Shown here in pieces: positions 28,457 to 59,555 of a stretch of 64,000 bases of DNA. This DNA comes from Anthoceros angustus (lineage: Eukaryota; Plantae; Anthocerotophyta): contig MU008161.1 of the NCBI GenBank assembly GCA_010909165.1, positions 496,001 through 560,000 on the forward strand. Reading direction: 5' to 3'. The notes below the pieces were generated by a model. The model was not told the origin of the DNA, ran no database searches, and worked only from the letters and a program-made list of their open reading frames with translations. The position numbers were made by a program, and so were the translations under genes. Numbering within the stretch: the first letter of the stretch is position 1; every line of letters starts with the position of its first letter.

Positions 28457-31272
28457 TAGTTTTATGGGAGGAGGATATTAGAAGTAAATACTATTCTAAA
28501 ATCTCTCGAGTAGAAATATGATACAATTTTAGGATATAGAGTGTGGGAAGCTTCTATATTACAATAAACTCCTTTTAGGGAGGTGACTCCCCTACATAAG
28601 GACCCTTGGCTTAGTACTCAATTGTTGGAGGATTTTCTCTAATCTTTTTTGTTACGCTTGATGCTCACCTTCTTGTGCGATCCTAGTTTAACCCAGGTGT
28701 TGCAACATGGATGTATTAATATTGATGGTGTTAGCATTAGCATACCGTTTAGTCTTGATCTATGTAATCAAGGTATTGCAACATGAGTATTGAATGTGAA
28801 ATTAAAGAATGGTTATTCCTTCTGTTGAGTCTGAAGCTTCTTTGGTCTTAGATCCATTTTATCAAATACATGCAGCTATCTAGGATGGTTAATTTGTACG
28901 CAATTGTATATCTTAATCTGAGACATAATAACATTGTTTAAAATTTGTTGCGAACTCTTTCAAGGCCATCAATCACATGAGGAGTAGAGTCCATCACACG
29001 GTGCCTCTTGATGTTGAGGAGGCCATGTCGGATCCTGAAAATCTCAAATATCTCGAAACATCATTCACTTCTTTTATTGGACACTTTATACTATATATAA
29101 TATTATGTATTTCATTTATGAGTTCGATATTCGGGATAGTGATTATTTTCATCGTTTACTTAATTGTAATCATAATCTATATCTTAAAGGCCTTCATCCT
29201 ATATCTTATATCTCTTGAGGATTCTATGGCACGAAACATTAGACGTACTATCATGAGGGAGCACCTCGCGAAGAGGGAGCACCTCGTGGAGAGGGAGCCG
29301 CAAGATGGGAGGAGAGAGCACCTCGTGGAGAGGAGCCACACGATGCAAAGAGGGAGCACCTCGCGAAGAGGGAGCCTAGAGAGAGAACAATATGGATGTA
29401 GACGAAGATTCGTCTATGGATGAGGAGGAGTGGGTTATGATATAAAACCTATTGAAGGTTTTAGAAATCTCGATTGCTAGAGCGATCACTTGAACTCGGA
29501 TCTCATTGTGAAGGATATCTTTTAACCACATCAATTATTGGGGTTGGGTTATTGGGTGAACCAAGTTCGCAATAATCGTCATAGAAAGGCAATGAGATCG
29601 AAATGAAGGAGGAACATGGAGAAGAGGGAGCCTAGAGAGAGAACAATATGGATGTAGACGAAGATTCGTCTATGGATGAGGAGGAGTGGGTTATGATATA
29701 AAACCTATTGAAGGTTTTAGAAATCTCGATTGCTAGAGCGATCACTTGAACTCGGATCTCATTGTGAAGGATATCTTTTAACCACATCAATTATTGGGGT
29801 TATTGGGTGAACCAAGTTCGCAATAATCGTCATAGAAAGGCAATGACTACGTGCCCGCTTAGTTTTATGGGAGGAGGATATTAGAAGTAAATACTATTCT
29901 AAAATCTCGAGTAGAAATATGATACAATTTTAGGATATAGAGTGTGGAAGCTTCTATATTACAATAAACTCCTTTTAGGAGGTGACTCTACATAAGGACC
30001 CTTGGCTTAGTACTCAATTGTTGGAGGATTTTCTCTAATCTTTTTTGTTACGCTTGATGCTCACCTTCTTGTGCGATCCTAGTTTAACCCAGGTGTTGCA
30101 ACATGGATGTATTAATATTGATGGTGTTAGCATTAGCATACCGTTTAGTCTTGATCTATGTAATCAAGGTATTGCAACATGAGTATTGAATGTGAAATTA
30201 AAGAATGGTTATTCCTTCTGTTGAGTCTGAAGCTTCTTTGGTCTTAGATCCATTTTATCAAATACATGCAGCTATCTAGGATGGTTAATTTGTACGCAAT
30301 TGTATATCTTAATCTGAGACATAATAACATTGTTTAAAATTTGTTGCAGAACTCTTTCAAGGCCATCAATCACATGAGGAGTAGAGTCCATCACACGGTG
30401 CCTCTTGATGTTGAGGAGGCCATGTCGGATCCTGAAAATCTCAAATATCTCGAAACATCATTCACTTCTTTTATTGGACACTTTATACTATATATAATAT
30501 TATGTATTTCATTTATGAGTTCGATATTCGGGATAGTGATTATTTTCATCGTTTACTTAATTGTAATCATAATCTATATCTTAAAGGCCTTCATCCTATA
30601 TCTTATATCTCTTGAGGATTCTATGGCACGAAACATTAGACGTACTATCATGAGGGAGCAGGGCACTGAGATGGAGAACCTCGTGGAGAGGGAGCCGCAA
30701 GATGGGAGGAGAGAGCACCTCGTGGAGAGGGAGCCACACGATGCAAAGAGGGAGCACCTCGCGAAGAGGGAGCCACACGATGGGAACAGCGAGCAGTGCA
30801 ATGAGATCGAAATGAAGGAGGAACATGCGGAGAAGAAAGATCTAGAGGAGCCGCGCGAGGGGAAGAGAGCGCAACACAATGAGACGGAAATGAAGAGGGA
30901 GGAACATGCAGAGAATAGGGATCTAGAGCAGCTCGAGGAGACGGAGATGAATTCAAGGGAGACACACACGGAGCATAGGGAACCTAGTGAGAGGGAGATG
31001 AAGACAAAGGAACACATGGAGAAGAGGGAGCCTAGAGAGAGAGAACAATATGCGGATGTAGACGAAGATTCGTCTATGGATGAGGAGGAGTGGGTTATGA
31101 TATAAAACCTATTGAAGGTTTTAGAAATCTCGATTGCTAGAGCGATCACTTGAACCTGGATCTCATTGTGAAGGATATCTTTTAACCACATCAATTATTG
31201 GGGTTGGGTTATTGGGTGAACCAAGTTCGCAATAATCAGTCATAGCTGAAAGGCAATGACTACGTGCCCGCT
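28457..31272 (+). repeat. Tandem duplication of a ~1.4 kb AT-rich unit (28457-29859, 29860-31272); copy 1 has internal deletions and a re-duplicated 3' part
   Basis: Identical blocks starting TAGTTTTATGGGAGGAGGATATTAG and ending GGCAATGACTACGTGCCCGC. Confidence 0.85.
30374..31105 (+). CDS. Hypothetical TE-associated ORF with a long hydrophobic segment and Glu/Arg-rich REP/REH repeats
   Basis: Open frame within the duplicated unit; no recognised family; broken copy at 28977-29445. Confidence 0.3.
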   Translation: MRSRVHHTVPLDVEEAMSDPENLKYLETSFTSFIGHFILYIILCISFMSSIFGIVIIFIVYLIVIIIYILKAFILYLISLEDSMARNIRRTIMREQGTEMENLVEREPQDGRREHLVEREPHDAKREHLAKREPHDGNSEQCNEIEMKEEHAEKKDLEEPREGKRAQHNETEMKREEHAENRDLEQLEETEMNSRETHTEHREPSEREMKTKEHMEKREPREREQYADVDEDSSMDEEEWVMI

Positions 31273-36099: not shown

Positions 36100-37485
36100 A
36101 GTGTATGAGTTTGACGTGTCTTGTAGCGTAGTGGTGCTTTCTAGTTTTTGTAAAGCCAAGGGTCTCACTGTCAATATGCACAAGACCCCAAGATCATGCG
36201 ATTCAACTCTAAGGATTACAAGGGTGATTGCGTATTCTATTATGATGGACAAGAGGTGGAGATGGTCCGCTCCCATACGTACCTAGGTATTACGATTTTT
36301 GGTCCAAAGTTCAATTGGACTTTTTCCGCCTCTTCCCGTGCCACCAAGGGGATGGGTGCTACTGCTGCTCTGCGCCGGGTTTTATTCAGGATGAATATTC
36401 TGGATATCAACCTCCGGAAGCAGCTTTTCAACACACTAGTCATACCCTCCATTATTTATGGTGATGAGGTTTGGGGCCCGGGTCTTTCCTCTTCCTCTCG
36501 GGATAAGGTGGAAAAAGTACAAACCTCCTTTCTCCGTGCTCACATTGCCTGTAAGTGTTCGACCCCCTTACCTATCCTCCTTTCTGAATTTGCAGCCTTC
36601 CCCCTTAAACTTAATGGCCTCTTTCGCCTCTCTTGTTTCCTTTACCGTCTCGTCCTCCTTGACATTGTTAACCCTTCCCCCCCCTACCATCTCCTCGCCT
36701 TCAGGTCTTCCCACTCCCTTAGGTCAATTCTGATTCCCAAGGTTCTTTTTCTTGGCTCTCCCAAGCAGCTACTTGGCTTAAACGGCTTGACGTTGCTCCC
36801 CCTAGGCTCCCGACTTGGCCAACTCCCCATTCCCACTCTCCCCTTTCTCATCTCCCTCCCAACCACCTCATCCGGCGGGACCTTAAATTAAGATACCTTC
36901 GTCTCACTTGGTTCCCCCTTTCATTTGCCCCTCCCTTTACGTCCAAACTGCGTTTCTACAAGGAGGAGTTCCGGGTCAATCCCCCTTCTGGGTTCCCTGC
37001 CCTACCACGTTACCTCAGTTCCCCTCTCTCCTTCAAGCTCCATACTCTCATCGGTCAATTTTGTGTTAGCTCCCACCACCTCGAATCGAGACCGACCGTT
37101 GGCTTAAGCCCACACCTCCCCAAGCTGCTCGTATTTGCAAGCTCTGCTCCCTTGACCCTGAATCTGACTCCTATTCGGGCTCGATACTCTCTTCTTTTTG
37201 AGTGTGTTGGTTTTTCCTTGCGCAAATTCTTCTCGTTTCATATTCCGAAGCTCACTGGTCTATGTCTCTCCGAGCTTCTTGATTTTCAGCAAACCAGTTG
37301 GATTTCTTTATAGCTCCTTTGCCTCTTTTAGCTTTCCTTCCCTTTTTCCATCTTACACCATCGTTGTCTCTCAAGTTCAGTATGTGTATGCAGTGTTTTG
37401 CCTCTTTTTACGCTATACTATCTCTGTCCTACGATGATCCTTCATTCTTAGGGGACATAAATAAAGTTGTTGTTATGGTTGAATA
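36100..37485 (+). mobile_element. 5'-truncated non-LTR retrotransposon (RTE/RTEX/CR1-like ORF2 C-terminus)
   Basis: GLTVNMHKT, VRSHTYLGI, LFNTLVIPSIIYGDEVWG, KVEKVQTSFLR, Cys motif RICKLC; ends with AATAAA and a GTT-repeat tail at ~37460-37480. Confidence 0.8.
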
Positions 37486-46300: not shown

Positions 46301-47487
46301 GCCACAGGACAACTTTTGAGGCTACATTGCCAGCATAAAGAAACGTCCTCCACAGAAAAGGTAAGGCACCTGGAAAATAGCAAGGACTGTAACAGGGTCT
46401 GTTGCTGATATGATAGATCCAAAGATCATGCTTTCAAAAAATGTCAGCTTGTAGATGAGATACAACACGCCTCCCAACCAGCTGGAATTGAAACCGTATA
46501 ACACGATTACAAACTGCAAGCCACGCTGCTACAGACAAATTTCTTCTCCTGTGGAACTTCCCATGCAAGCCACAACGCATTCAAACCGGCATCCACTAAA
46601 GTTGCAATTTCTTACACTAAGATCCCTGTCACCATTGCAGCGACAAAAGTGCCCAGAATGGCGATAACACATATGGCTCCAAAGTTGGAAAAAAATGGTT
46701 TCTGCACACATGTTCACATGTAGGTGAGACCTTCAGAGAACAGATCAAATACGCAGGTTCTCACATCAGATGTAAGAATCTCACAACCGTACAAAAACAA
46801 TCATACCGGTCGAAGGCTAAAGCCAGATTCGGTGCCACATTGCTTGTCAAGGCCACAACATATTTTTCGAAACCCGGTCCCGGACTTCAACAGCTCAGGA
46901 GCAAGAAAATTCAGCTAGCACATTTTATGCTCAAAGGATATAATATAATCGGAGGAAGTAGAAAAAAGAAGAAGAAATCCTCGTGGAAGTTGAACCAATC
47001 TCTGCCAATCCAGGACAGCGGTAAGACACGTGAATGCCGCTGATCCTCTAATGCAGACCAGAACCGGATGCCGGTGTCACAACCTGAAACGGTCCTCTGT
47101 ATTCGAGAAATTCGCTAGCATACCCGCACAAAGGCCTGCGACAACACAGGAAGGACAATGAAGCACGTGCCTACTAGTCGCACGCTCCAACTCTCCACTT
47201 CTCCGGCAAATCTAACCACTAAAGCTACAGAGACTGTTCCCAATTCCCCCACGGTAACCCAGACACAGCGTCCGAACTTGGCAAAGGTAGCGAACCACAC
47301 CAATGATAAGAGCCGCGCTGGCTTCGTGAAGATAGTGAAACTTATGCCGCCTTAAAACGTGGCCCATCACAAATGCCAGCACCAGCATCAATATCTGCAA
47401 CAAAATGCTGACACTCGCAATCTGCTGCGGGTCGACCAACTTTGCGACAGGCTCAATTCCCGTCCGAATCAACGTCTCTTCTTCCAT
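43373..47487 (-). CDS. NHX6: Endosomal Na+/H+ antiporter, NHX5/6-like, ~20 exons including three U12-type introns; last exon tentative
   Basis: [118 protein letters not shown]. Confidence 0.93.
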
Positions 47488-48939
47488 TCCCTGCCCCCGG
47501 AACTCCTGCTGCAGTGAGACAGAAAAGGCGAAAAACCTCATGACCAACTCTTCCCCGCCACACATCCTGCTCCATGGCAAGCTCCAAGAATAAGCACAAA
47601 TCTGACCACACCGTACGCTAATTCTCCAGCTTCGAGCATTCAACGGCTCCCACTTCCCGTCCCCAGCTTCTCAGCTGCCGGATACCGAGATTGACTATTC
47701 TGACTTGCTGTGACCGCAGAATTGCGCAATTCTGACGTTACAAGGCACCCCTAACAGCCGGATCGCACCGCTCCAAGATGCCGCCTGAGATTGAAGCAAA
47801 CAGCGCCGTCTCCAGCACAGACCATCACCTTACGGCATCCGGGGATGCACGGGACTTGAAAAGCCGGCGCTTGTCTGGTGGCCGGCCTCGGCCAGCTTCC
47901 CTGCTTTCGTGCTCCCCTTCCGCTTCGACATCTGTGTCTTGTTAGATGTGAATTCCGTAACGGACTGCCTATTTGTCTTTTAACTGTGATCAGTGGCAGT
48001 GGCGTGTTATGCACAGATTATATCAAGCTATCCAGACGTATGTAGTTTATATTGGCCAATAATCTTGGCTGGTGTACGGACAGTCCAGCATGTACGCATG
48101 TAGTTGGCCTGTAATGTATGGAATACTAATGTCGTCAGAATGGATATGAAATTCATCAGCGGGCCACTTTTGTACGATAACGTTTTTTAACATTTTTTTT
48201 GAGTATATTGTATACTTAATGCCTCACATCTTCAAGATTCCTCATATTATACATGCCACATCATCCCATATGTGATAGAAAAATTTTTATCACACAACTT
48301 GGTCTCTTGGTGTTGGGATGTTATCACCTCATCCCTATTTTATCTAACATTTATGGTTTTTCTTACATAAATACACATGTTTTTACATAACATGGAACAT
48401 ATTTATGTTTGTTGGACATGTTGGGACCCAGGCATCCGGATCCTCACTCCCATTCGTCGTAAGGTCCAAGTAGACTTCCTGGATGAATGCGATGAATACT
48501 GGCTTCAGCTTGCCATCAGCTTACATGTTCAAGAATGTGTCACCTATACCGGGTACGGGTACGTGAGTCTCCGGTGTGTGTGCCAACAAGATGGCCAACC
48601 AAGATTATGTATTATGTATGAGGGTGCAAACAGAAGAGCAGGCATGCGGGTTTTGCGATCATGCAAGACTTAGATGCATTCAGACCTCGCACAAATATCC
48701 AGGCCTTGCACATGCATCCAACACTACTAGAAAGGGTAGCAGTCATTGTTGAAATTTTATGTGCAATGCTTTGTAGCCATTGTTGGAATTTTATGTTACA
48801 CAGAGTCATGGTTGTCTTGAGTGTTCCATGATTAGAATCAGCCCGGGGATCAACATTTCCGCGAAAGCCAGCCAGTGCTGTTGAAAATGGATTTTCTAGC
48901 GAGGGTCGTGGCTAAGGGACGTTGTGGTCGGAGATCAGG

Positions 48940-49598
48940 CAAAAATGTCAGCTTGTAGATGAGATACAACACGCCTCCCAACCAGCTGGAATTGAAACCG
49001 TATAACACGATTACAAACTGCAAGCCACGCTGCTACAGACAAATTTCTTCTCCTGTGGAACTTCCCATGCAAGCCACAACGCATTCAAACCGGCATCCAC
49101 TAAAGTTGCAATTTCTTACACTAAGATCCCTGTCACCATTGCAGCGACAAAAGTGCCCAGAATGGCGATAACACATATGGCTCCAAAGTTGGAAAAATGG
49201 TTTCTGCACACATGTTCACATGTAGGTGAGACCTTCAGAGAACAGATCAAATACGCAGGTTCTCACATCAGATGTAAGAATCTCACAACCGTACAAAACA
49301 ATCATACCGGTCGAAGGCTAAAGCCAGATTCGGTGCCACATTGCTTGTCAAGGCCACAACATATTTTCGAAACCCGGTCCCGGACTTCAACAGCTCAGGA
49401 GCAAGAAAATTCAGCTAGCACATTTTATGCTCAAAGGATATAATATAATCGGAGGAAGTAGAAAAAGAAGAAGAAATCCTCGTGGAAGTTGAACCAATCT
49501 CTGCCAATCCAGGACAGCGGTAAGACACGTGAATGCCGCTGATCCTCTAATGCAGACCAGAACCGGATGCCGGTGTCACAACCTGAAACGGTCCTCTG
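48940..49598 (-). pseudogene. Duplicated fragment of the NHX gene (copy of 46435-47099, exons plus introns)
   Basis: Near-identical sequence that differs mainly in homopolymer lengths; includes the AT-AC intron. Confidence 0.9.
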
Positions 49599-52500
49599 GT
49601 TGAGCAATTTAAGCAAGCCAGCGCAGTCTGCTGCTCTGGATATGGGGATGGGAACTTTTGTTCCCGACGGGAGATTACTTGGTGAGCTTGACCCAGGAAG
49701 ACTTGCAGCTGAAACCGTGAGCGAGCTATGTCGTGATGGCCATCTTACTGGGGCTGTGGAGGCTTTGGGGGTTCTGGTGCAGACAGACAGTTCTGTTTCC
49801 AAATCTCTGGTGTATGATGTGCTGAAGAAATGTGTAGCTCAGAAGAATGTGGCTCTGGGTCGGCGTGTCCATGCTTTTGCGGTGAGAAAGGGATATGAAT
49901 CAGACACGTTCCTGGGCTTCCACATTCTGCGAATGTATGCTTCTCATGGCAGGTTGCAAGACGCGATGGATGTGTTCGCAGGGGTGGCCAAACCGAATGC
50001 CTTCACGTGGACTGCCATAATTTCTGCAAATGTTCAGCATGGGCAAGAAATTCAGGCTATAGAGTTGTATCATCGGATGCGCAGGTCAGGTGTGGAGCCA
50101 GATGGGCATGTGTTTGTGGCAGCGCTTCAGGCTTGCGCAAGGGGATCAGACTTGAAAACGGGGCAGCAGGTGCATGCTGATATTTTGGCCACTGGGGTTG
50201 AGCCGGAGTTGGTTGTTTGGAATTGCTTGGTGAGCATGTATGCGAAGTGTGGCAGCTTGGAGGATGCTCAGAGAGTGTTTGACGGACTTCGTCATAAAAA
50301 TGCAGTGACGTGGAATGCCTTGATAGCAGGGTATTCCCAGCAGGGCTTGGGGCAGGAGGCTCTGCGTCTCTACAGTGCCATGCGAGAAGAAGGGATCGCT
50401 GTACCCGATTCTGTGACATTTGTGTGCCTCCTGCAGGCATGTGGAAGTATGGGCAGCCCGGCTCTGGGCTGGGGGAAGCAGCTTCATGCACAAATTAGGG
50501 AACAAGGACATCAAGCTGATGTTTTTGTAGGCAGCAGTTTGGTGAACATGTATGCAAAGTGTGGCAGCTTGCAAGATGCTCAGACTGTGTTTGACGGTCT
50601 TGATAAAAAAGGTGTGGTGACTTGGAATGCCCTGATAGCAGGGTATTCGCAGCAGGGCAAGGGCCAGGAAGCCCTTCGCCTGTACAGTGCAATGCAAGAA
50701 GGAGGTGTGGCTGTACCAGATTCAGTGACATTTGTGTCTCTCCTGCAGGCGTGTGCAAGTGTAGGCACCCTAGCTTTGGAGACGGGGAAGCAGCTTCATG
50801 CCCAAATTAGAGAACAAGGACATCAAGCTGATGTATTTGTAGCCAGCAGTTTGGTGAACATGTATGCAAAGTGTGGCAGCTTGGAAGATGCTGGGAGAGT
50901 CTTTGACAGACTTGGTCCAAAAGATGTGGTGACATGGAATGCTATGATTGCAGGGTATTCCCAGCAGGCATGGGGCAGGAAGCCCTTCATCTCTACAGTG
51001 ATATGCAAGACGATGGCTTGGCTGCACCCAATTCTGTGACGTATGTGTGCCTCCTGCAGGCGTGTGCAAGTGTGGTCAGCCCAGCTTTGGAGGTGGGGAA
51101 GCAGCTTCATAGAGAAATTAAAGAACGAGGATATGAATCTGATGTATTTATTGGTAACAGTCTAGTAAACATGTACTCTAAGTGTGGCAGCTTAGAAGAT
51201 GCCCGCAGAGCGTTTGATGGACTTGGTCAAAAGATGTGGTGACATGGACTGCTCTAATTGCAGGGTATTCCCAGCAGGGCAAGGGCCAAAAAGTGTTTAG
51301 TCTCCACAGAGCTATGCAAGAAGAAGGAATCGCTGTACCAAATTCCGTGACATTTGTCTGCCTCCTACAGGCATGTGCGAATTTGGGCAACCCAGCTCTG
51401 GAGAAGGGAAGGGAGCTTCATGCGCAAATTAGAGAACAAGGGCATCAAGCTGATGTTTCTGTAGCCAATTGCTTGGTGAACATGTACGCGAAGTGTGGCA
51501 GTTTAGAAGATGCGCAGAAAGTGTTTGACGAAATTGGTCAAAAAAATGTGGTGACGTGGAATGCCATGATAGCAGGGTATTCCCAGCATGGCATGGGCCT
51601 GGAAGCCCTGGATCTGTACAGTGCTATGCTAGAAGAAGGAATCACCACACCTGATTCTGTTTCATTGATGTGCCTCGTACAGGCATGTGCAAGTGTGGGC
51701 ACCCCAGCTTTGGAGAAAGGGAAGCAGCTTCATGCCAAAATAAGAGAACAAGGACTTCAAGCTGATTCATTTGTAGCTAGCAGTTTGGTGAACATGTATG
51801 CGAAGTGTGGCAGCTTGGAAGATGCCCAGAAAGTGTTTAACGGTCTTGGTCAGAAGGATGTTGTGACGTGGACTGCTCTAATTGCGGGGTATTCGCAGCA
51901 GGCATGGGCCAGGAAGCCCTTTCTCTCTACAGTGATATGCAAGACGATGGCTTGGCTGCACCCAATTCTGTGACATTTGTGTGCCTACAGGCATGTGCAA
52001 GTGTGGGCACCCCAGCTTTGGAGGTGGGAAGCAGCTTCATGCACAAATTAGGGAACAAGGACATCAAGCTGATGTTTTTGTAGGCAGCAGTTTGGTGAAC
52101 ATGTATGCAAAGTGTGGCAGCTTGCAAGATGCTCAGACTGTGTTTGACGGTCTTGATAAAAAAGGTGTGGTGACTTGGAATGCCCTGATAGCAGGGTATT
52201 CCCAGCAGGGCATGGGCCAGGAAGCCCTTCATCTCTACAGTGATATGCAAGACGATGGCTTGGCTGCACCCAATTCTGTGACATTTGTGTGCCTCCTGCA
52301 GGCATGTGCCATTGTGGGCACCCCTGCTTTGGAGATAGGGGATCAGCTTCATATGCTAATCAGAGAACGAGGGTATCAAGCTGATGTGTTTGTATCCAGC
52401 AGTTTGGTGAACATGTATGCGAAGTGTGGCAGCTTGGAAAACGCTCAGAAAGTGTTTGAGGGACTTGGTCAGAAAAATGTGGTAACGTATAATGCTATGA

Positions 52501-55232
52501 TAGCAGGGTATTCCCAGCAGGGCATGGGCCAGGAAGCCCTTCATCTCTACAGTGCCATGCGAGAAGAAGGGATCGCTGTACCCGATTCTGTGACGTATGT
52601 GTGCCTCCTACAGGCATGTGCGAATTTGGGCAACCCAGCTCTGGAGAAGGGAAGGGAGCTTCATGCGCAAATTAGAGAACAAGGGCATCAAGCTGATGTT
52701 TCTGTAGCCAATTGCTTGGTGAACATGTACGCGAAGTGTGGCAGTTTAGAAGATGCGCAGAAAGTGTTTGACGAAATTGGTCAAAAAAATGTGGTGACGT
52801 GGAATGCCATGATAGCAGGGTATTCCCAGCATGGCATGGGCCTGGAAGCCCTGGATCTGTACAGTGCTATGCTAGAAGAAGGAATCACCACACCTGATTC
52901 TGTTTCATTGATGTGCCTCGTACAGGCATGTGCAAGTGTGGGCACCCCAGCTTTGGAGACGGGGAAGCAGCTTCATGCCCAAATTAGAGAACAAGGACAT
53001 CAAGCTGATGTATTTGTAGCCAGCAGTTTGGTGAACATGTATGCAAAGTGTGGCAGCTTGGAAGATGCTGGGAGAGTCTTTGACAGACTTGGTCCAAAAG
53101 ATGTGGTGACATGGAATGCTATGATTGCAGGGTATTCCCAGCAGGGCAAGGGCCAAAAAGTGTTTAGTCTCCACAGAGCTATGCAAGAAGAAGGAATCGC
53201 TGTACCAAATTCCGTGACATTTGTCTGCCTCCTACAGGCATGTGCGAATTTGGGCAACCCAGCTCTGGAGAAGGGAAGGGAGCTTCATGCGCAAATTAGA
53301 GAACAAGGGCATCAAGCTGATGTTTCTGTAGCCAATTGCTTGGTGAACATGTACGCGAAGTGTGGCAGTTTAGAAGATGCGCAGAAAGTGTTTGACGAAA
53401 TTGGTCAAAAAAATGTGGTGACGTGGAATGCCATGATAGCAGGGTATTCCCAGCATGGCATGGGCCTGGAAGCCCTGGATCTGTACAGTGCTATGCTAGA
53501 AGAAGGAATCACCACACCTGATTCTGTTTCATTGATGTGCCTCGTACAGGCATGTGCAAGTGTGGGCACCCCAGCTTTGGAGAAAGGGAAGCAGCTTCAT
53601 GCCAAAATAAGAGAACAAGGACTTCAAGCTGATTCATTTGTAGCTAGCAGTTTGGTGAACATGTATGCGAAGTGTGGCAGCTTGGAAGATGCCCAGAAAG
53701 TGTTTAACGGTCTTGGTCAGAAGGATGTTGTGACGTGGACTGCTCTAATTGCGGGGTATGCACAGCAGGGCATGGGCCAGGAAGCCCTTTCTCTCTACAG
53801 TGATATGCAAGACGATGGCTTGGCTGCACCCAATTCTGTGACGTATGTGTGCCTCCTGCAGGCGTGTGCAAGTGTGGTCAGCCCAGCTTTGGAGGTGGGG
53901 AAGCAGCTTCATGCCAAAATAAGAGAACAAGGACTTGAAGCTGATGTATTTATTGGTAACAGTCTAGTAAACATGTACTCTAAGTGTGGCAGCTTAGAAG
54001 ATGCCCGCAGAGCGTTTGATGGACTTGGTCAGAAGGATGTGGTGTCATGGAATGCCATGATCACAGGATATTCCCAGCAGGGTCTTGGCGAGGAAGCCCT
54101 TCATCTCTACAGTGCTATGCACGAAGAAGCCATCAGTATGCCTGATTCTGTGTCATTTGCATGCCTCTTGCAGGCATGTGCAACTATAGGCACCCGAGCT
54201 TTGGAGAAAGGGAAGCACCTTCATGCACAAATTAGAGAACAAGGACTTGAAGCTGATGCGTTTGTAAGCAGCAGTTTAGTGAACATGTATGCAAAGTGTG
54301 GGAGCTTGGAAGATGCCCAGAGGGTGTTTGAGGCACTTGGTCACAAAGGCCTGGTAACTTGGAACGCCATGATAGCAGGCTATTCCCAGGAGGGCATGGG
54401 TCTGGAAGCCCTTCGGCTGTACCGTGGTATGCAAGAAGAAGGCGTCGCGGCACCCGATTCCGTGACATTTGTGTGCCTCCTACAGGCATGCGCAAATGTG
54501 GCCGCTTTGTCCCTGGGACGGCAGCTACATGCACAGATTCAAGAACAAGGGCTTCAAGCTGATGTGTACGTCGCTGGCAGTTTGATAAACATGTACGCGA
54601 AGTGTGGGGACATGGTAAATGCACACCAGGTTTTTGCTGCTTTGGAAGCGAGAGACACTGTTATGTGGAATGCACTTATTGCTGGCTATACCTCTCAAGG
54701 AGACAGTGAAGCGGTCTTTGACTCACTCCGGAGAATGAGAGAGGACGACATAACCCCAGACGGCATCACATTCCTCAGTGTTTTAACAGTGTGCTGTCAT
54801 GCGGGTCTAGTGAACAAGGGCCGGGAATACTTCGAGTCTATGAGAAGACAACATGGCATCGCTCCCACTGAAGACCACTATACATGCATGGTGGATCTCC
54901 TGGGCCGTGCAGGAGAAGTACAAGAAGCACTAGCTTTCGCAACGACAATGCCTCTCCAGCCCACTCCCGCACTCTGGCACACTCTACTGGCTGCTTGTCA
55001 AAAATGGAGGAATGTGGAGGTCGGTGTTCATGCTTTCGACCAAGCCTTGAAGCTAGACAAGGAAGATGCTGCAGCATATGTTTTGATGTCGAACGTATAC
55101 ACCAATGCCCAGATGTGGGAACAGGCAGAGAGAATGCAGGCAAGGAGAAAACAAATAAGGGCATGGAAGCAGCCGGGTCAGAGCTGGTGGACCGACGAGG
55201 ATGGACTGGTGCATAGTTTCGTGGTTGGGTGA
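49567..55232 (+). CDS. Very long PLS-class PPR protein (~16-17 P-L-S triplets) with E domains and PG box but no DYW domain; RNA-editing-factor-like; four apparent 1-nt frameshifts (~50968, ~51230, ~51901, ~52027)
   Basis: Repeating 105-aa units VVTWNALIAGYSQQG / VTFVCLLQACA / VFVGSSLVNMYAKCGSLEDA; terminal HYTCMVDLLGRAG, WHTLLAAC, AAYVLMSNVY, KQPGQSWW..VHSFVVG then stop. Confidence 0.92.
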
Positions 55233-55445
55233 GCAGCAAGTTCTGTGCAAGTGGAACCATCTAGTCTAAAGCAAGTCGGTGGGGTATGGTGCTGGGACGA
55301 CGAGTCCGAAGACGTACCAGTGAAGTCATCCCAACCACACTGTAGAATTGGCAAGCAGCTCTTAGTCAGAGCGTTGCGGCAATCAGGGCATGCACAACTG
55401 TTGGACATTTTCTACATGTGCAAGGCAAGGAAATAAGCCAGTGTG

Positions 55446-56123
55446 ATGGCGGCAGTGCCGGTGAGGACGCTCTTCGACAGCTTCATTGAGGTGCACTATG
55501 GCTTCTTCTCTCTGCTGGCTAAAGGGGATGAGCACGGGGACCTCATCGACGCCAGAGTAGGGCAGGCAAACGGCTTGTGCGGCACCCGGGTGCCGCACCA
55601 GGTTTGGCTGGTCACAGGGCTGCACACGGGACCTGTCCCAGTCCGCGTGGAGTGGCTGCCAAAGGAGCCCCCCGAAGCGCCCAGTGAGTGGGAGGACGTG
55701 GTGGAGGCCTCTGTGGAGTTTCCCACCACCGAGACCTCGCTCATGGGCTTCGACTGGAACGGAGCCGTGGACATCAGTCTTCCTCATGCCGGGTGGCATC
55801 GGGCTCGCTTTTCGGTCTGTGGGATGGACCGTGGGCAGGAGTTGGACACCGCAGATGGCGACGAATTCGTCGCTCCCGATCGCTACCTGCTGCAGCTGTG
55901 GCTGGCCCCTGACGCACCTGACCGAGTGATCCGGCAGGGCAGTGAGATTGGTGCTTACTGGCACCGCGTCGCGCAGGGCTGGGATCGTGGAGAAAGTCGT
56001 GACGTCGGCAGAGAGGAGGAAGGGAGAGGAGACGAGGGGGGAGATGGGGAAGGGGAAGAGGGGGCAAAGGCGAAAGAGAGGAAAGGAGCGAAAGAGGGAG
56101 AAGAGGGGAAACAAAGGGACTAG
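55446..56123 (+). CDS. Intronless hypothetical protein resembling actinobacterial proteins (candidate horizontal transfer), with a low-complexity charged tail
   Basis: GQANGLCG, LVTGLHTGPVPVRVE, EPP...WEDVVEASV, HRARFSVCGMD, DRYLLQLWLAPDAPDRVIRQGSEIGAYWH; motif order recalled from Streptomyces/Micromonospora hypothetical proteins; GC-rich third codon positions. Confidence 0.7.
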   Translation: MAAVPVRTLFDSFIEVHYGFFSLLAKGDEHGDLIDARVGQANGLCGTRVPHQVWLVTGLHTGPVPVRVEWLPKEPPEAPSEWEDVVEASVEFPTTETSLMGFDWNGAVDISLPHAGWHRARFSVCGMDRGQELDTADGDEFVAPDRYLLQLWLAPDAPDRVIRQGSEIGAYWHRVAQGWDRGESRDVGREEEGRGDEGGDGEGEEGAKAKERKGAKEGEEGKQRD

Positions 56124-56174
56124 GAGGAAGGGGAGAAAAGCGAAAGGAGAGAAGAGAGGCACGAGGGGACGAGA

Positions 56175-56360
56175 GGCTTGTCCAGATTCAGCATGCCATT
56201 GCTCATCCAAGACACCACATGTAGTTCATATACAGAAACCTGAACTATTGCTCGCTTGTCCACATTCAGCATATGCCATTCCTCAATCAAGACAATGTAT
56301 GTAGTTCTTATACAGAAACCTGAACTATTGCCCGCTTGTCCACATTCAGCATGCCATTCC
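56175..56360. repeat. ~80-bp tandem repeat, about 2.3 copies, following a purine-rich tract
   Basis: GCTTGTCCACATTCAGCAT...ATGTAGTTC.TATACAGAAACCTGAACTATTGC units. Confidence 0.8.
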
Positions 56361-56689
56361 CCAACAAAGAGTTGTTTCTGCGCTTTGTCCTCCACCTCCC
56401 TGCTAGGTGATGCTAAGCACCTTGCGAACGAGCTTTGAGGGAGGCAATAACAACAATAAGCTCCAGAATAACAAAGCAAGACGAGGCAACTGAAAGAAAA
56501 ACTAAGCGAGCAAAGAAAGCATCCCCTGCATTTCTTCGTCAGACACTTCACCTATTGAGGCACTGGTTCGTGACCATGACAAGTAAAACGAGGAAGTTCA
56601 GTGCTCTACTCTACCAACGGAGCTACTGTCTGAGCGAGCTCTCGGTGGTTGTTCTTGCGTGGCCGATAGGTACAACAACGGCTTACCAT

Positions 56690-57226
56690 TCACGCAGCGG
56701 GTTCTTGAGGTTGACAGCCCAGAGTGAGCCGACAAACGCGCCACTGAGGCAACACACTGGCTCCCATGGCCTGGTAGAATTTGATGGCATTTACGTTCCA
56801 GTCGAGAATGCACCAGTCCAGGCTGCTGGCCCCCTGCGTGGCTGCGTGGTGTGCCACAGTGCGCAGGAGCTCGGTGCCCAGGCCCTTCTTCCGGTGCGCC
56901 TCCCGCACGTACAGGTCCTCTATGAAGAAGCCACGCTTTCCCGAGAAGCTAGAGAAGTTGGGGAAGAAGAGAATGTAGCCTGCCACCACGCGATCCGGGT
57001 AGAGCGGTGAGCGGAACGAGTCCTCAGACTCCGGGTCATCGCTCACCTCCAGTAGCAATGCCGTGGGACCCTGGAAGGGAGGCAGCTTGAACAAAGCCTC
57101 CTCCATCTCCTCATCTTTCAGCAAGCATTCCTCGGTCATTTTCACATACACGGCGAACTCCCGAACTAGGCTACAAATGACGTTCACGTCTTGCTTCGTT
57201 GCAAGCCGGACTTGGGGCTCTGCCAT
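56690..57226 (-). CDS. GNAT N-acetyltransferase (SSAT/NATA1/tyramine feruloyltransferase-like), intronless
   Basis: VRLATKQDV, PPFQGPT, AGYILFFPNFSSFSGKRGFFIEDLYVREAHRKKGLGTELL, WCILDWNVNAIKFYQAMGA, WRVCRL. Confidence 0.93.
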   Translation of the reverse strand: MAEPQVRLATKQDVNVICSLVREFAVYVKMTEECLLKDEEMEEALFKLPPFQGPTALLLEVSDDPESEDSFRSPLYPDRVVAGYILFFPNFSSFSGKRGFFIEDLYVREAHRKKGLGTELLRTVAHHAATQGASSLDWCILDWNVNAIKFYQAMGASVLPQWRVCRLTLGCQPQEPAA

Positions 57227-57552
57227 TGCAGCCTGCGGAGGAGGAGGAATGCGGGTTCTGGACTGTGGGATTTCTCGTTTCCATAAATTATGACAAGAAA
57301 ATTACTTCTTTATTCAGGCTCGCGTCCAAATGTAGGACACCAACACCTCTCTCCTCACACTTGCCTGCTTCTTCGGACTACACTCTCAACGACATTGTGT
57401 CTGGCACTCGACATGGAGTGCAAAAAATTGTGACGCAAAACTTTCTCCGTCTGTCAGCTCCAATGAGGCAGCCAGGGGCGCGGTTGCTCCTACGGAACCT
57501 GACACGGCACTGCATGACTTAGGACTGGTCATGGAACTCGGAACTGTGTAAT

Positions 57553-59555
57553 CTACAAGGTCAGATCCTTAGGGTCCTCAATGATGCCCGCCAATGTTTG
57601 CAAGAAAGCTGCTAACTCGGCACCGTAGATGATTCGGTGGTCTGCTGTTACGTTCACCTGCAACCTCTGTTGAGTTAGTAAGCTCGCCTAAGAAAAGTAC
57701 GATGCTTGCAACAAGTTTTGGAGGACAAGCAGATGCAGGGTTTTGGGCTTTGTCATCACCTGCATCTGGCTCTTTACACCGAAAAGGCCTCCAGGAGCTG
57801 CCACCACTGTTGGTCGAGACGCGCCGACGGCCATAATCGCACCCTGTAACAAGCAAGCCCGGTTAGGGATATCCTGCTACAACCAACAGCAATAAGTGAG
57901 CTAGGGTGCGCCACAGTTGGAGGTACTCACGGCACCCGGCGGAAGAATAGCATCAAATCTGTCTACACCAAACATCCCCAGATTCGACAGAAAGAAAGTC
58001 CCTGCGGGCCAAGACACAGACACAGGCAGCATCAGCTTCATGTCATGGCTATGAACTGGAAGCATGACAGGTAAAGGCATGCCTAATCTCGTACCAGAGT
58101 TGTATTCTTGAGGCTGCAGCTGCTTAGCACGGGCCTTGTCCACCAGCTCTTTCCACTTGCGGGACAGAGAGTAGATATCGATCTGCAGTTGCGTCACATC
58201 CACTGTTCAGGCTACGAAGGGAGCAGCGATAGACATCTTCCTCGCCAAGTGCTCCACCATGCGGGACCAGATTCAGAGTTCAAGTTACCTTGTCCGCATC
58301 CTGAAGAACTGGTGTCAAAAGGCCTCCATCCATGGCCACAGCCACAGCAACATTAATGTTGCTGTTGTATGTGAAGCTCTTACCATCCTTGCAACTGGCA
58401 TTCACCACCGGGTGCTTGGCCAGGGCCAGGGCAGTGGCCTTGGCCAAGAGAGCGGTCATGGTGACACCCTTGGACTTGATCTGCTCACATGCAGAAAAAC
58501 GAAAGCCCGTCACTCCATGTGCGGTTCAGAGCTAGCAAAGTCAGACAGCAAACTGGTGGTATACTCACCTTCTTGTACAAGGCGTCCAAGGCGTCCGTCT
58601 GAATGGTGTACCCGACTCGGAAAACAGGGACTGCTAAACTGTCCACCATGTTCCGGCTCACAGCACCTTGCATGGCGGTAAACGGTACAGTGGTGCCTGG
58701 AACCACGGCGGCCGCGGCGGGAGCGGGAGCAGGTGCGGACTTGACAGCAGCAGCAGGAACAGGCGCAGCCGGAGCCGCAGCCGGGGTAACCAGAGCAGCA
58801 ACCGGAGACGTCTCAGCGGACGGCGTCCTCCCTGCCGCAATCTCCACATCCGAGGCCACAATTCTTCCCAACGGGCCGGAGCCGGCCACAGTCGCCAAAT
58901 CCACCTTGAACTGCTTGGCCAGCTTTTTGGCATACGGCGTGGCAACGATTCTCCTCCCGCCCTCGGCCGCGGGGTGCGCGGACACCACCACGGGCGCGGC
59001 AGGCGCAGCAGCAGACGCGGCGGGGGGAGGCGGGGGCGGGGCCACAGCCTCCTCCTTCACCGCCGGAGCGGGAGCAGCAGCAGCAGCAGCAGCGGCAGGG
59101 GCAGAGGATTTGGCACCCTTGGCCTTGGCCTCTGCAATCTCCTCCTCGCTCTCGGCCAGCAATCCTATGGCCGTGCCGACGGCGGCCACCTCGCCCTCCC
59201 CGACCACAATGGCAGCCAGGTAGCCGTCGTAGAACGTCTCTACGTCCATGTCCGCCTTGTCGGACTCCACCACCACCACGCTCTCGCCCTTGCTCAGCTT
59301 CTCGCCCTCCGACTTCACCCAGGACACGATCTTGCCCTCCGTCATGGTGCTGCTCAGCGCAGGCATGAAAATCTCGCGGATCTTGGACTCCACCACCAGC
59401 GCCGAGCTCCTGCGGCTGGCCCTCCGGACAGGCACCACGGCTGCATGCCCCGGCCTGAGGCCGAGGAAGGGAGACTGCGCAGACGCGCCAGCCGCGCTAG
59501 CCGCGCCGGCATTGCTGCCTGCCAGGGCCTGCATGCAACCGAGCGAGGCCGCCAT
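57553..59555 (-). CDS. LTA2: Plastid pyruvate dehydrogenase E2 (dihydrolipoamide acetyltransferase), multi-exon
   Basis: Transit peptide; lipoyl domain IREIFMPALSSTMTEGKIVSW...ESDKADMDVE; VATPYAKKLAK; NIAVAV-type motif DGGLLTPVL; GTFFLSNLGMFGVDRFDAILPPG; DHRIIYGA; stop at 57553. Confidence 0.95.

What the first reader, a model, noticed from the sequence alone, without database searches (positions are those of the whole stretch)
55446..56123. Candidate horizontally acquired actinobacterial gene embedded among plant genes
Seen: an intronless GC-rich ORF lying between a plant PPR gene and a plant GNAT gene. Its ~180-aa globular part has the ordered motifs HYGFF, GQANGLCG, TGLHTG.V...VE, EPP, WEDVVEAS, RARF..GMD, DRYLLQLW.AP.APDRVIRQ.S....YWH. 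From memory, this motif order matches a family of uncharacterised Actinobacteria proteins (Streptomyces, Micromonospora, Nocardioides), and I know no plant family like it. Contiguity with intron-bearing plant genes argues against contamination. The charged tail translated from a GA-rich tract looks like a secondary extension. Function is unknown; a toxin-immunity-like role is speculation.
Basis: partly seen in the sequence, partly recalled or inferred. Interest (0 to 1): 0.85.

Follow-up and report, generated by a model that had tools for sequence, protein, structure and literature searches.

The report
Plant gene for bacterial DNase inhibitor
A small land plant carries, between ordinary plant genes, an intact gene closely related to soil actinobacterial genes, and its protein is predicted to be a Nin/ComJ-like blocker of secreted microbial DNA-cutting enzymes; the transfer was probably already listed in print without a function, and the gene may be decaying.

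Summary
The 678-nt intronless ORF and its motifs are real. Its 182-aa domain is up to 61% identical to actinobacterial proteins and nests among them in a tree. It is not contamination: reassembled contigs join it to plant genes, three other organisms carry orthologues, and its GC3 matches the host. A published hornwort HGT table lists a 678-bp, intronless, Actinobacteria-derived hypothetical gene that is probably this one; a 2025 reassessment rates that gene HGT in one row and possible contamination in another. What is new is a function. The model (pLDDT 95) matches only ComJ/Nin and CgnJ (Z 15 and 13, next 4). Distant relatives sit beside NucA/NucB DNase genes (9 of 20 and 9 of 20 loci); the plant gene's own subfamily does not (0 of 80). 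A predicted complex with such a DNase scores 0.90 against 0.01 for controls, through the family's most conserved residues. It is probably an orphan anti-DNase immunity protein. Against a current role: selection is weak (dN/dS about 0.3-0.7), one organism's copy has lost a core strand, and the charged tail is not conserved.

The parts
55446..55991 (+). ComJ/Nin-like beta-sandwich domain (residues 1-182) of actinobacterial origin; predicted NucA/NucB DNase inhibitor. Predicted interface: H17-F20, 30-34, H60-G62, 102-105, 131-137, 167-175
55992..56123 (+). 43-aa charged tail read from a GA-rich tract; not conserved (stop at codon 183 in D, 1-nt deletion at 55991 in C, 6-nt insertion in B)
55472..56031 (.). 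Stretch covered by a separate 560-nt contig of run X2, which is probably RNA; strand unknown
   Evidence: table 8 record 21
51993..55232 (+). Upstream neighbour (context): plant PLS-type PPR frame with E motif
56690..57226 (-). Downstream convergent neighbour (context): plant NATA1-like GNAT acetyltransferase; on one contig with the ORF's 3' part in organism D
58485..59555 (-). First exon frame of an intron-bearing dihydrolipoamide acyltransferase (E2) gene (context); its 3' exons lie on the same X1 contig as the ORF

Best explanation
This is an intact nuclear plant gene, likely transcribed and likely acquired from a soil actinobacterium, whose protein is predicted to have the ComJ/Nin fold and would block NucA/NucB-type secreted DNases by capping their DNA-binding cleft. 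Shown: the frame, its linkage to plant genes, orthologues in three other organisms, and distant relatives encoded beside NucA/NucB DNase genes. Predicted: the fold, and binding through H17/Y18/G19, H60/T61/G62 and W172 to the nuclease surface next to the catalytic Asp-Glu pair and the metal-ligand helix. Inferred: the donor subfamily consists of orphan immunity genes, which protect against other microbes' DNases rather than the cell's own. The plant protein has no evident signal peptide, so it would act in the cytosol or nucleus against DNases of associated microbes, and it is kept only under weak selection. My step odds: real transfer 0.95; ComJ fold 0.97; family acts as anti-DNase 0.8; the plant protein still binds such a DNase 0.6; this benefits the plant 0.3.
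For: Origin: the 13 hits with an organism name among 112 are all Actinomycetota. All 80 genome loci kept are actinobacterial. The plant row is sister to two unnamed metagenome proteins (100/95) inside a standalone-form clade (98/87). Integration: one 3196-nt contig of X1 covers 55163-58326 with 0 other letters, at depth 10, the same depth as the neighbouring genes. In organism D one 1424-nt contig holds both the GNAT gene and the ORF's 3' part. B and C each have one contig over 55750-56077/56100 with the domain frame intact. GC3 is at host level. Fold: pLDDT 94.9. The only Foldseek hits at E<=1e-3 are ComJ 4MQD and CgnJ 6I86. VIA Z 15.1 (rmsd 3.1, 131 aligned) and 13.0 (rmsd 3.3, 143 aligned), next 4.0. 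An Atlas cluster with PF11033 on 22% of members scores 0.92. Context: a NucA/NucB gene lies in 9 of 20 loci of distant homologues (8 directly upstream on the same strand) and in 9 of 20 loci of the L086-type subfamily. These homologues align through the same motifs; L117 is 29% identical. Complex: 0.90 in three runs, best of 3 controls 0.01, runs agree in at least 90% of contacts, partner pLDDT 91; the mark was reached by 51 of 78 solved and 2 of 108 mismatched pairs. H17, Y18, G19, H60, T61, G62 and W172 are 93-100% conserved in the close family. No solved NucA/NucB-inhibitor complex was found by sequence. Selection: codons 9-116 against D give dN/dS 0.32, p 0.014.
Against: The plant gene's own subfamily never had a NucA/NucB neighbour (0 of 80 loci, 789 kb), so its function may have drifted before the transfer. 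No Pfam, NCBIfam or PADLOC match; identity to ComJ is 8-9%. The complex is a model's own confidence; close cousins of a true partner pass too (10 of 12), and it was tested with one foreign nuclease that has Ser where NucB has its metal-binding Asn. Interface residues are not more conserved than the rest in the wider alignment (0.27 against 0.28). Selection is weak: pooled dN/dS against D is 0.46 (p 0.046); the C-terminal half against B and C gives 0.61 and 0.67, not significant. The window has L153 and G169 where 97% of the family, and organisms B and C, have P and A. In run X12 (D) the GNAT-linked copy lacks about residues 141-166, including the DRYLLQLW strand. Contigs give no strand, so the RNA cover could be read-through from the convergent GNAT gene. 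Known NucA/NucB DNases are secreted, and no route into a plant cell was shown.
Confidence: 0.55

Rival explanations
1. A real transfer of an anti-DNase gene that now does little or nothing in the plant: a relic under relaxed selection, transcribed passively between two active genes and being lost lineage by lineage.
For: In-frame loss of a core strand and a second, partial copy in D; dN/dS of 0.6-0.7 in the C-terminal half; changes at two 97%-conserved sites in the window; three different C-termini in B, C and D; X8's single contig joins the ORF to the GNAT side.
Against: The domain frame is intact in the window and, over the part laid, in B and C, while the tail beside it takes stops and frameshifts. 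Codons 38-92 show 9 synonymous changes and 1 replacement against D. The predicted interface core is unchanged in the window. dS of about 0.1 gives little power either way.
Confidence: 0.25
2. The fold is ComJ-like, but the orphan subfamily binds a partner other than a NucA/NucB DNase (as may hold for CgnJ in its peptide-biosynthesis cluster), and the plant uses that other activity.
For: 0 of 80 close-family loci have a NucA/NucB neighbour, and their neighbours are mixed housekeeping genes. The subfamily has its own conserved extras (GQxNGLCG, C-terminal YWH helix). 49 of 80 loci extend well beyond the domain, about half of them with a shared helical domain. CgnJ matches almost as well as ComJ.
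Against: The predicted DNase complex uses exactly the subfamily's most conserved residues. The fused helical domain's best matches are DUF416 proteins and 7JTU chain B (Z 6.9-7.2, next 4.6), which fits a two-immunity fusion, though that Z is weak for a helical domain.
Confidence: 0.16
3. Bacterial contamination or a chimeric assembly.
For: Intronless; 61% identical to metagenome proteins; no homologue named as a eukaryote; one row of PMC12711439 Table S4 rates the probably matching gene as potential contamination. X1 may be the window's own sample, and no long reads were available.
Against: Orthologues at roughly 90-94% nucleotide identity in three other organisms from other studies, joined to the same plant flank; same depth as plant neighbours in X1 and X12; host-like GC3; no other bacterial-type gene beside it.
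Confidence: 0.02
4. Ancient vertical inheritance with loss in other plants.
For: PMC3482391 Table 3 lists 'viridiplantae' for Imm-ComJ; which plant was not visible. My tree is unrooted and has one plant row.
Against: 61% identity to bacterial-type proteins and nesting in one actinobacterial subclade. No plant-named hit among 112 or the best 120 of 460, in a database that does hold moss, liverwort, lycophyte and seed-plant proteins.
Confidence: 0.02

Closest known systems
Bacillus subtilis ComJ/Nin (PDB 4MQD, Pfam PF11033), inhibitor of NucA/NucB; Imm-ComJ of polymorphic toxin systems (PMC3482391, PMC5758888)
   Same: Same fold (Z 15.1, 131 of 133 residues aligned); acidic protein with no evident signal peptide; relatives encoded directly behind secreted NucA/NucB DNases; predicted to bind such a DNase.
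   Different: 8-9% identity and no PF11033 match; extra C-terminal strand and YWH helix; its subfamily is orphan; encoded in a plant nucleus with no nuclease gene in the window. PMC3482391 Table 3 does not list actinobacteria for Imm-ComJ.
CgnJ of the crocagin cluster (PDB 6I86)
   Same: Same fold (Z 13.0, 143 aligned).
   Different: 8-11% identity; no peptide-biosynthesis context among the neighbours scanned; its function was not established in anything I read.
AANG002567, hornwort-specific HGT candidate (PMC7027989 Supplementary Table 31; re-rated in PMC12711439 Table S4)
   Same: 678 bp, + strand, no intron, transcript-supported, donor Actinobacteria, hypothetical, no Pfam: all as here. It is the only 678-bp row of that table. 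Probably the same gene.
   Different: The tables hold no sequence, so identity was not tested by alignment. They give no fold or function. The re-rating is split between HGT and potential contamination.
Orphan and poly-immunity proteins of bacterial toxin systems (PMC3482391, section on polyimmunity loci)
   Same: Immunity domain without an adjacent toxin; fusions with a second domain; a tandem two-domain form (P0126).
   Different: Close-family loci are single genes among housekeeping genes, not immunity arrays.

Membership tests
Pfam ComJ (PF11033) | Match to the family HMM | tested here: not met
   No match for the protein or for any of 41 aligned members at E<=1; not filed as PF11033.
ComJ/Nin-like fold | Structural match over the whole domain | tested here: met
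   Foldseek E 3.4e-6, probability 1.00; VIA Z 15.1, rmsd 3.1, 131 aligned, next unrelated row 4.0; on a predicted model.
Imm-ComJ immunity proteins | Encoded next to a ComI/NucA/NucB nuclease: the plant gene and its close subfamily | tested here: not met
   0 of 80 close-family loci; none in the 64-kb window.
Imm-ComJ immunity proteins | Encoded next to a ComI/NucA/NucB nuclease: detectable distant homologues | tested here: met
   9 of 20 and 9 of 20 loci, all from one bacterial genus.
Imm-ComJ immunity proteins | Binds a NucA/NucB nuclease | tested here: inconclusive
   Predicted only: 0.90 against best control 0.01; 51 of 78 solved and 2 of 108 mismatched pairs reach the mark.
Imm-ComJ immunity proteins | Inhibits DNase activity | not testable with these tools
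   Needs an assay.
Bacterium-to-plant HGT | Physically linked to host genes, also in other species | tested here: met
   Contigs of X1 and X12 bridge to plant genes; X3 and X8 run on into the same flank. No long reads.
Bacterium-to-plant HGT | Nested in a bacterial clade | tested here: met
   unrooted, one plant row, no one-clade test run; 4 of 80 loci were dropped for a stop in my slice.
Bacterium-to-plant HGT | Absent from other plant and eukaryote lineages | tested here: inconclusive
   No eukaryote-named hit, but most hits are unnamed and no plant genomes could be searched.
Functional (domesticated) HGT gene | Sense transcription and purifying selection | tested here: inconclusive
   Unstranded contig in a probable RNA run; dN/dS 0.32-0.67 on listed sites only; broken copy in D.

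The most novel reading that the evidence does not exclude
A land plant took an orphan immunity gene from bacterial warfare and uses it as an intracellular shield against NucA/NucB-type DNases of the microbes that live on and in it. The modelled complex also shows how Nin/ComJ-type proteins block these nucleases, which PMC5758888 called an open question.
Probability: 0.25. Interest if true: 0.85.

Novelty: new variant of a known kind. Interest (0 to 1): 0.58.

Why it matters
It supports, with orthologues and synteny, a published but contested plant HGT candidate, and gives that hypothetical gene a precise, cheaply testable function. It links a large unannotated actinobacterial family (1033 cluster representatives, no Pfam) to NucA/NucB immunity and offers a residue-level model of Nin-type inhibition. 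If the plant protein inhibits microbial DNases in vivo, it would be a bacterial antitoxin recruited into plant defence. If it is decaying, it is a clean snapshot of the fate of a recent transfer.

Tried and rejected
No whole genome was held, so paralogues and any host NucA/NucB gene outside the window are untested. Pfam, NCBIfam, PADLOC and PDB sequence searches gave nothing usable for the domain (one NCBIfam row far below its cut-off). Of 63 longer relatives, 2 had a Pfam match. Close-family neighbourhoods showed no conserved operon; of 136 nearest neighbours picked I scanned 79, and the only nuclease-type hits were one HNH, one Mrr, one 5'-3' exonuclease and transposases. The fused helical domain had no Foldseek hit at E<=1e-3, no usable Atlas hit and no PDB sequence hit. 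GC content as an HGT sign was rejected. Run X16 had no cover, which proves nothing. No RNA holder is on record; X2 and X8 are guesses. X10 has no cover at 55826-56110, which is a hole and not evidence. A 301-genome phylum sample matched in only 5 genomes. Earlier scan notes: nothing by sequence or place, two unrelated notes by words. Literature: AANG002567 is in no main text. ComJ with hornwort gave 4 papers with one mention each, seen as listings only and apparently unrelated. The New Phytologist paper 10.1111/nph.20040 is not held, the Molecular Plant 2022 paper was not read, Supplementary Fig. 75 and Note 7.1 of PMC7027989 were not among the files held, and the additional file of PMC3482391 had no usable text. 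Any of these could hold a functional remark or name the plant ComJ entry.

Full report
OBSERVATION. 55446-56123 (+) is an intronless 225-aa frame with all listed motifs. Residues 1-182 form the domain; the last 43 are a charged tail from an 88% purine tract. Upstream lies a PLS-type PPR frame. Downstream lie a convergent GNAT gene, whose organism-named relatives are all plant NATA1-like proteins (best named about 44-47%), and an intron-bearing E2 gene. The domain's GC3 (74.7%) equals that of four host frames (72-75%; the PPR frame is 48.5%) and is below the 25 best bacterial loci (mean 90.5%, range 69-98%). GC therefore shows adjustment to the host, not foreignness.

ORIGIN. 112 homologues were found at E<=1e-3, best 61% identical; the 13 with an organism name are all Actinomycetota. 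The exhaustive search gave 1033 representatives. A motif scan of bacterial genomes confirmed 169 of 185 stretches, and the 80 kept are all actinobacterial (one motif, so biased). In a 101-row tree (76 of the 80 loci, 24 proteins, the plant row) the plant protein is sister to two unnamed metagenome proteins (100/95) inside a clade of standalone forms from Nocardioides, Pedococcus, Promicromonosporaceae and others (98/87) (unrooted, no clade test). The family is patchy: 5 of 301 phylum genomes and 31 of 101 genomes of one genus.

INTEGRATION. In run X1 one 3196-nt contig covers 55163-58326 with no other letters (15 gap letters), joining the PPR end, the ORF, the GNAT gene and E2 introns; X1 may be the window's own sample. 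Independent support comes from three other organism labels. In D (X12) a 643-nt contig lies on 55437-55824 with 27 differences and no gap, and a 1424-nt contig holds both the GNAT gene and the ORF's 3' part. In B (X3) one 2004-nt contig and in C (X8) one 1573-nt contig carry the domain's second half in frame and run on into the same downstream flank (for B and C only 55750-56300 was laid). Run X2 (same sample as X1) looks like RNA: one contig lies on separated E2 exons, and places between the PPR end and the ORF have no cover. It has a separate contig on 55472-56031. Strand is unknown, so read-through from the GNAT gene is not excluded.

TAIL AND SELECTION. The tail is secondary: D has a stop at codon 183, C a 1-nt deletion at codon 182, B a 6-nt insertion. 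On the differences that the tool listed (21 of 27 for D's first contig, part of the rest), codons 9-116 against D give 10 synonymous and 11 replacement changes (dN/dS 0.32, p 0.014), with 9 to 1 in codons 38-92. Pooled D gives 0.46 (p 0.046); the C-terminal half against B and C gives 0.61 and 0.67, not significant. The window has L153 and G169 at sites where 97% of the family, and B and C, keep P and A. D's GNAT-linked contig skips 55866-55942 with two letters between, an in-frame loss of about residues 141-166 including a core strand, and D has pieces of a second copy. Constraint is present but weak, and at least one sampled copy is probably dead.

FOLD. The model has pLDDT 94.9 and pTM 0.91. 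The only clear matches are B. subtilis ComJ/Nin (4MQD; Foldseek E 3.4e-6; Z 15.1, rmsd 3.1, 131 aligned) and CgnJ (6I86; Z 13.0, rmsd 3.3, 143 aligned); the next row has Z 4.0. The Atlas gave unnamed actinobacterial clusters and a ComJ-labelled cluster at 0.92. No Pfam model matches, so this is ComJ-like and not a PF11033 member.

CONTEXT IN BACTERIA. The close family has no conserved neighbour and no NucA/NucB gene in 80 loci (789 kb). The same profile also finds distant homologues (E 1e-23 to 1e-4). Of those 29 matches I fetched 20 regions covering 21. Nine regions hold a PF14040 NucA/NucB DNase: 8 directly upstream on the same strand, and one about 2 kb upstream in a frame that ends at the gene. 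A third subfamily (type L086; hhalign probability 97.7 to the close family) has the DNase in 9 of 20 loci, mostly tail to tail, with only 1.5-kb flanks. Six of eight DNase frames examined begin with signal-peptide-like stretches. All come from one genus and are not independent events. The motifs VHY, NGL, TGxHTG, WEDVVE, RxR and YLLQxWPA run through the distant forms. The layout matches nucA-nin and the ComI/Imm-ComJ pairs of PMC3482391 (passages and section 24 read). 49 of 80 close loci extend beyond the domain. The shared helical extension folds well but matches only weakly, to DUF416 proteins and 7JTU chain B (Z 6.9-7.2); that chain B is the immunity chain is my recollection.

PREDICTED MECHANISM. 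Residues 4-180 folded with the DNase domain of L117, whose own neighbour is 29% identical to the plant protein, score 0.90 in three runs against a best control of 0.01. The runs agree in at least 90% of contacts and the partner's pLDDT is 91; the mark was reached by 51 of 78 solved and 2 of 108 mismatched pairs; alignments were not used. The closest contacts join H17, Y18, G19, F20, H60, T61, G62 and residues 134-135 to nuclease residues 56-67, 85-86 and 108-115. These flank the Asp80-Glu81 pair and include the position of the metal-binding Asn; in NucB these are Asp93, Glu94 and Asn117 (PMC5758888, passages). This reads as a cap on the substrate cleft. PMC5758888 states that how Nin inhibits is open, and I found no solved complex by sequence or in one paper search. 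Limits: one foreign nuclease, with Ser at the Asn position; close cousins of true partners also pass; it is a model and not a measurement. The plant protein has no strongly hydrophobic stretch (best 19-residue mean 0.88), so a cytosolic or nuclear site is inferred. No nuclease gene or second copy lies in the window.

WHAT IS KNOWN. PMC7027989 Supplementary Table 31 (read whole; main-text passages) lists AANG002567 as a hornwort-specific transfer: 678 bp, + strand, no intron, transcript, Actinobacteria, hypothetical, no Pfam. I take it as probably this gene; no sequence was available to align. PMC12711439 (passages and supplement rows) shows that two later surveys also listed it, and rates it HGT in one row and potential contamination in the other. 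The host is therefore probably a hornwort. PMC3482391 lists viridiplantae for Imm-ComJ without a species that I could see. My searches found no paper linking this gene or hornworts to ComJ, but two survey papers and several supplements were not seen.

VERDICT. A real transfer, probably already listed in print; the functional assignment is new, well supported by computation and untested at the bench; its use to the plant is uncertain. New variant of a known kind; interest 0.58.

Noticed in passing
window 49567-55232 (+): One very long PPR array is split into several frames (49567-51039, 50934-51242, 51314-51973, 51993-55232) with near-identical repeated blocks; this could be frameshifts or assembly slips.
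   Followed up: partly
window 55230-55436 (+): The PPR frame stops at HSFVVG, while many other contigs continue VGDxKHP (loose ends). The same frame stays open for 67 more codons after the stop, ending just before the ORF; possibly a decayed PPR C-terminus at the insertion site.
   Followed up: partly
window 56176-56370: An 80-nt repeat (two full copies at 89%, a partial third) between the ORF and the GNAT gene; the copy layout differs in C and D.
   Followed up: partly
run X12 on window 55753-55840 and 56157: Organism D has pieces of a second, partly deleted copy of the gene (contigs of 512 and 522 nt, joint skipping 316 bases).
   Followed up: no
L086-L089, L093, L095, L099, L102: A subfamily in one actinobacterial genus in which the ComJ-like gene lies tail to tail with a secreted DNase of about 470 aa instead of behind it.
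   Followed up: partly
L021:5586-6107 and 22 like loci: An unannotated helical domain fused behind the ComJ-like domain, confidently modelled (pLDDT 97) and weakly DUF416-like.
   Followed up: partly
window 28932-29423 and 30338-31105 (+): A duplicated coding-like block followed by short charged tandem repeats; not identified.
   Followed up: no
window 36154-37313 (+): Two overlapping frames that look to me like the decayed end of a LINE-type reverse transcriptase (recalled resemblance, not tested).
   Followed up: no
window 46621-47043 and 49006-49443 (+): Near-identical stretches in two places, probably a local duplication next to a Na+/H+ exchanger-like exon at 47212-47670 (recalled resemblance).
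   Followed up: no
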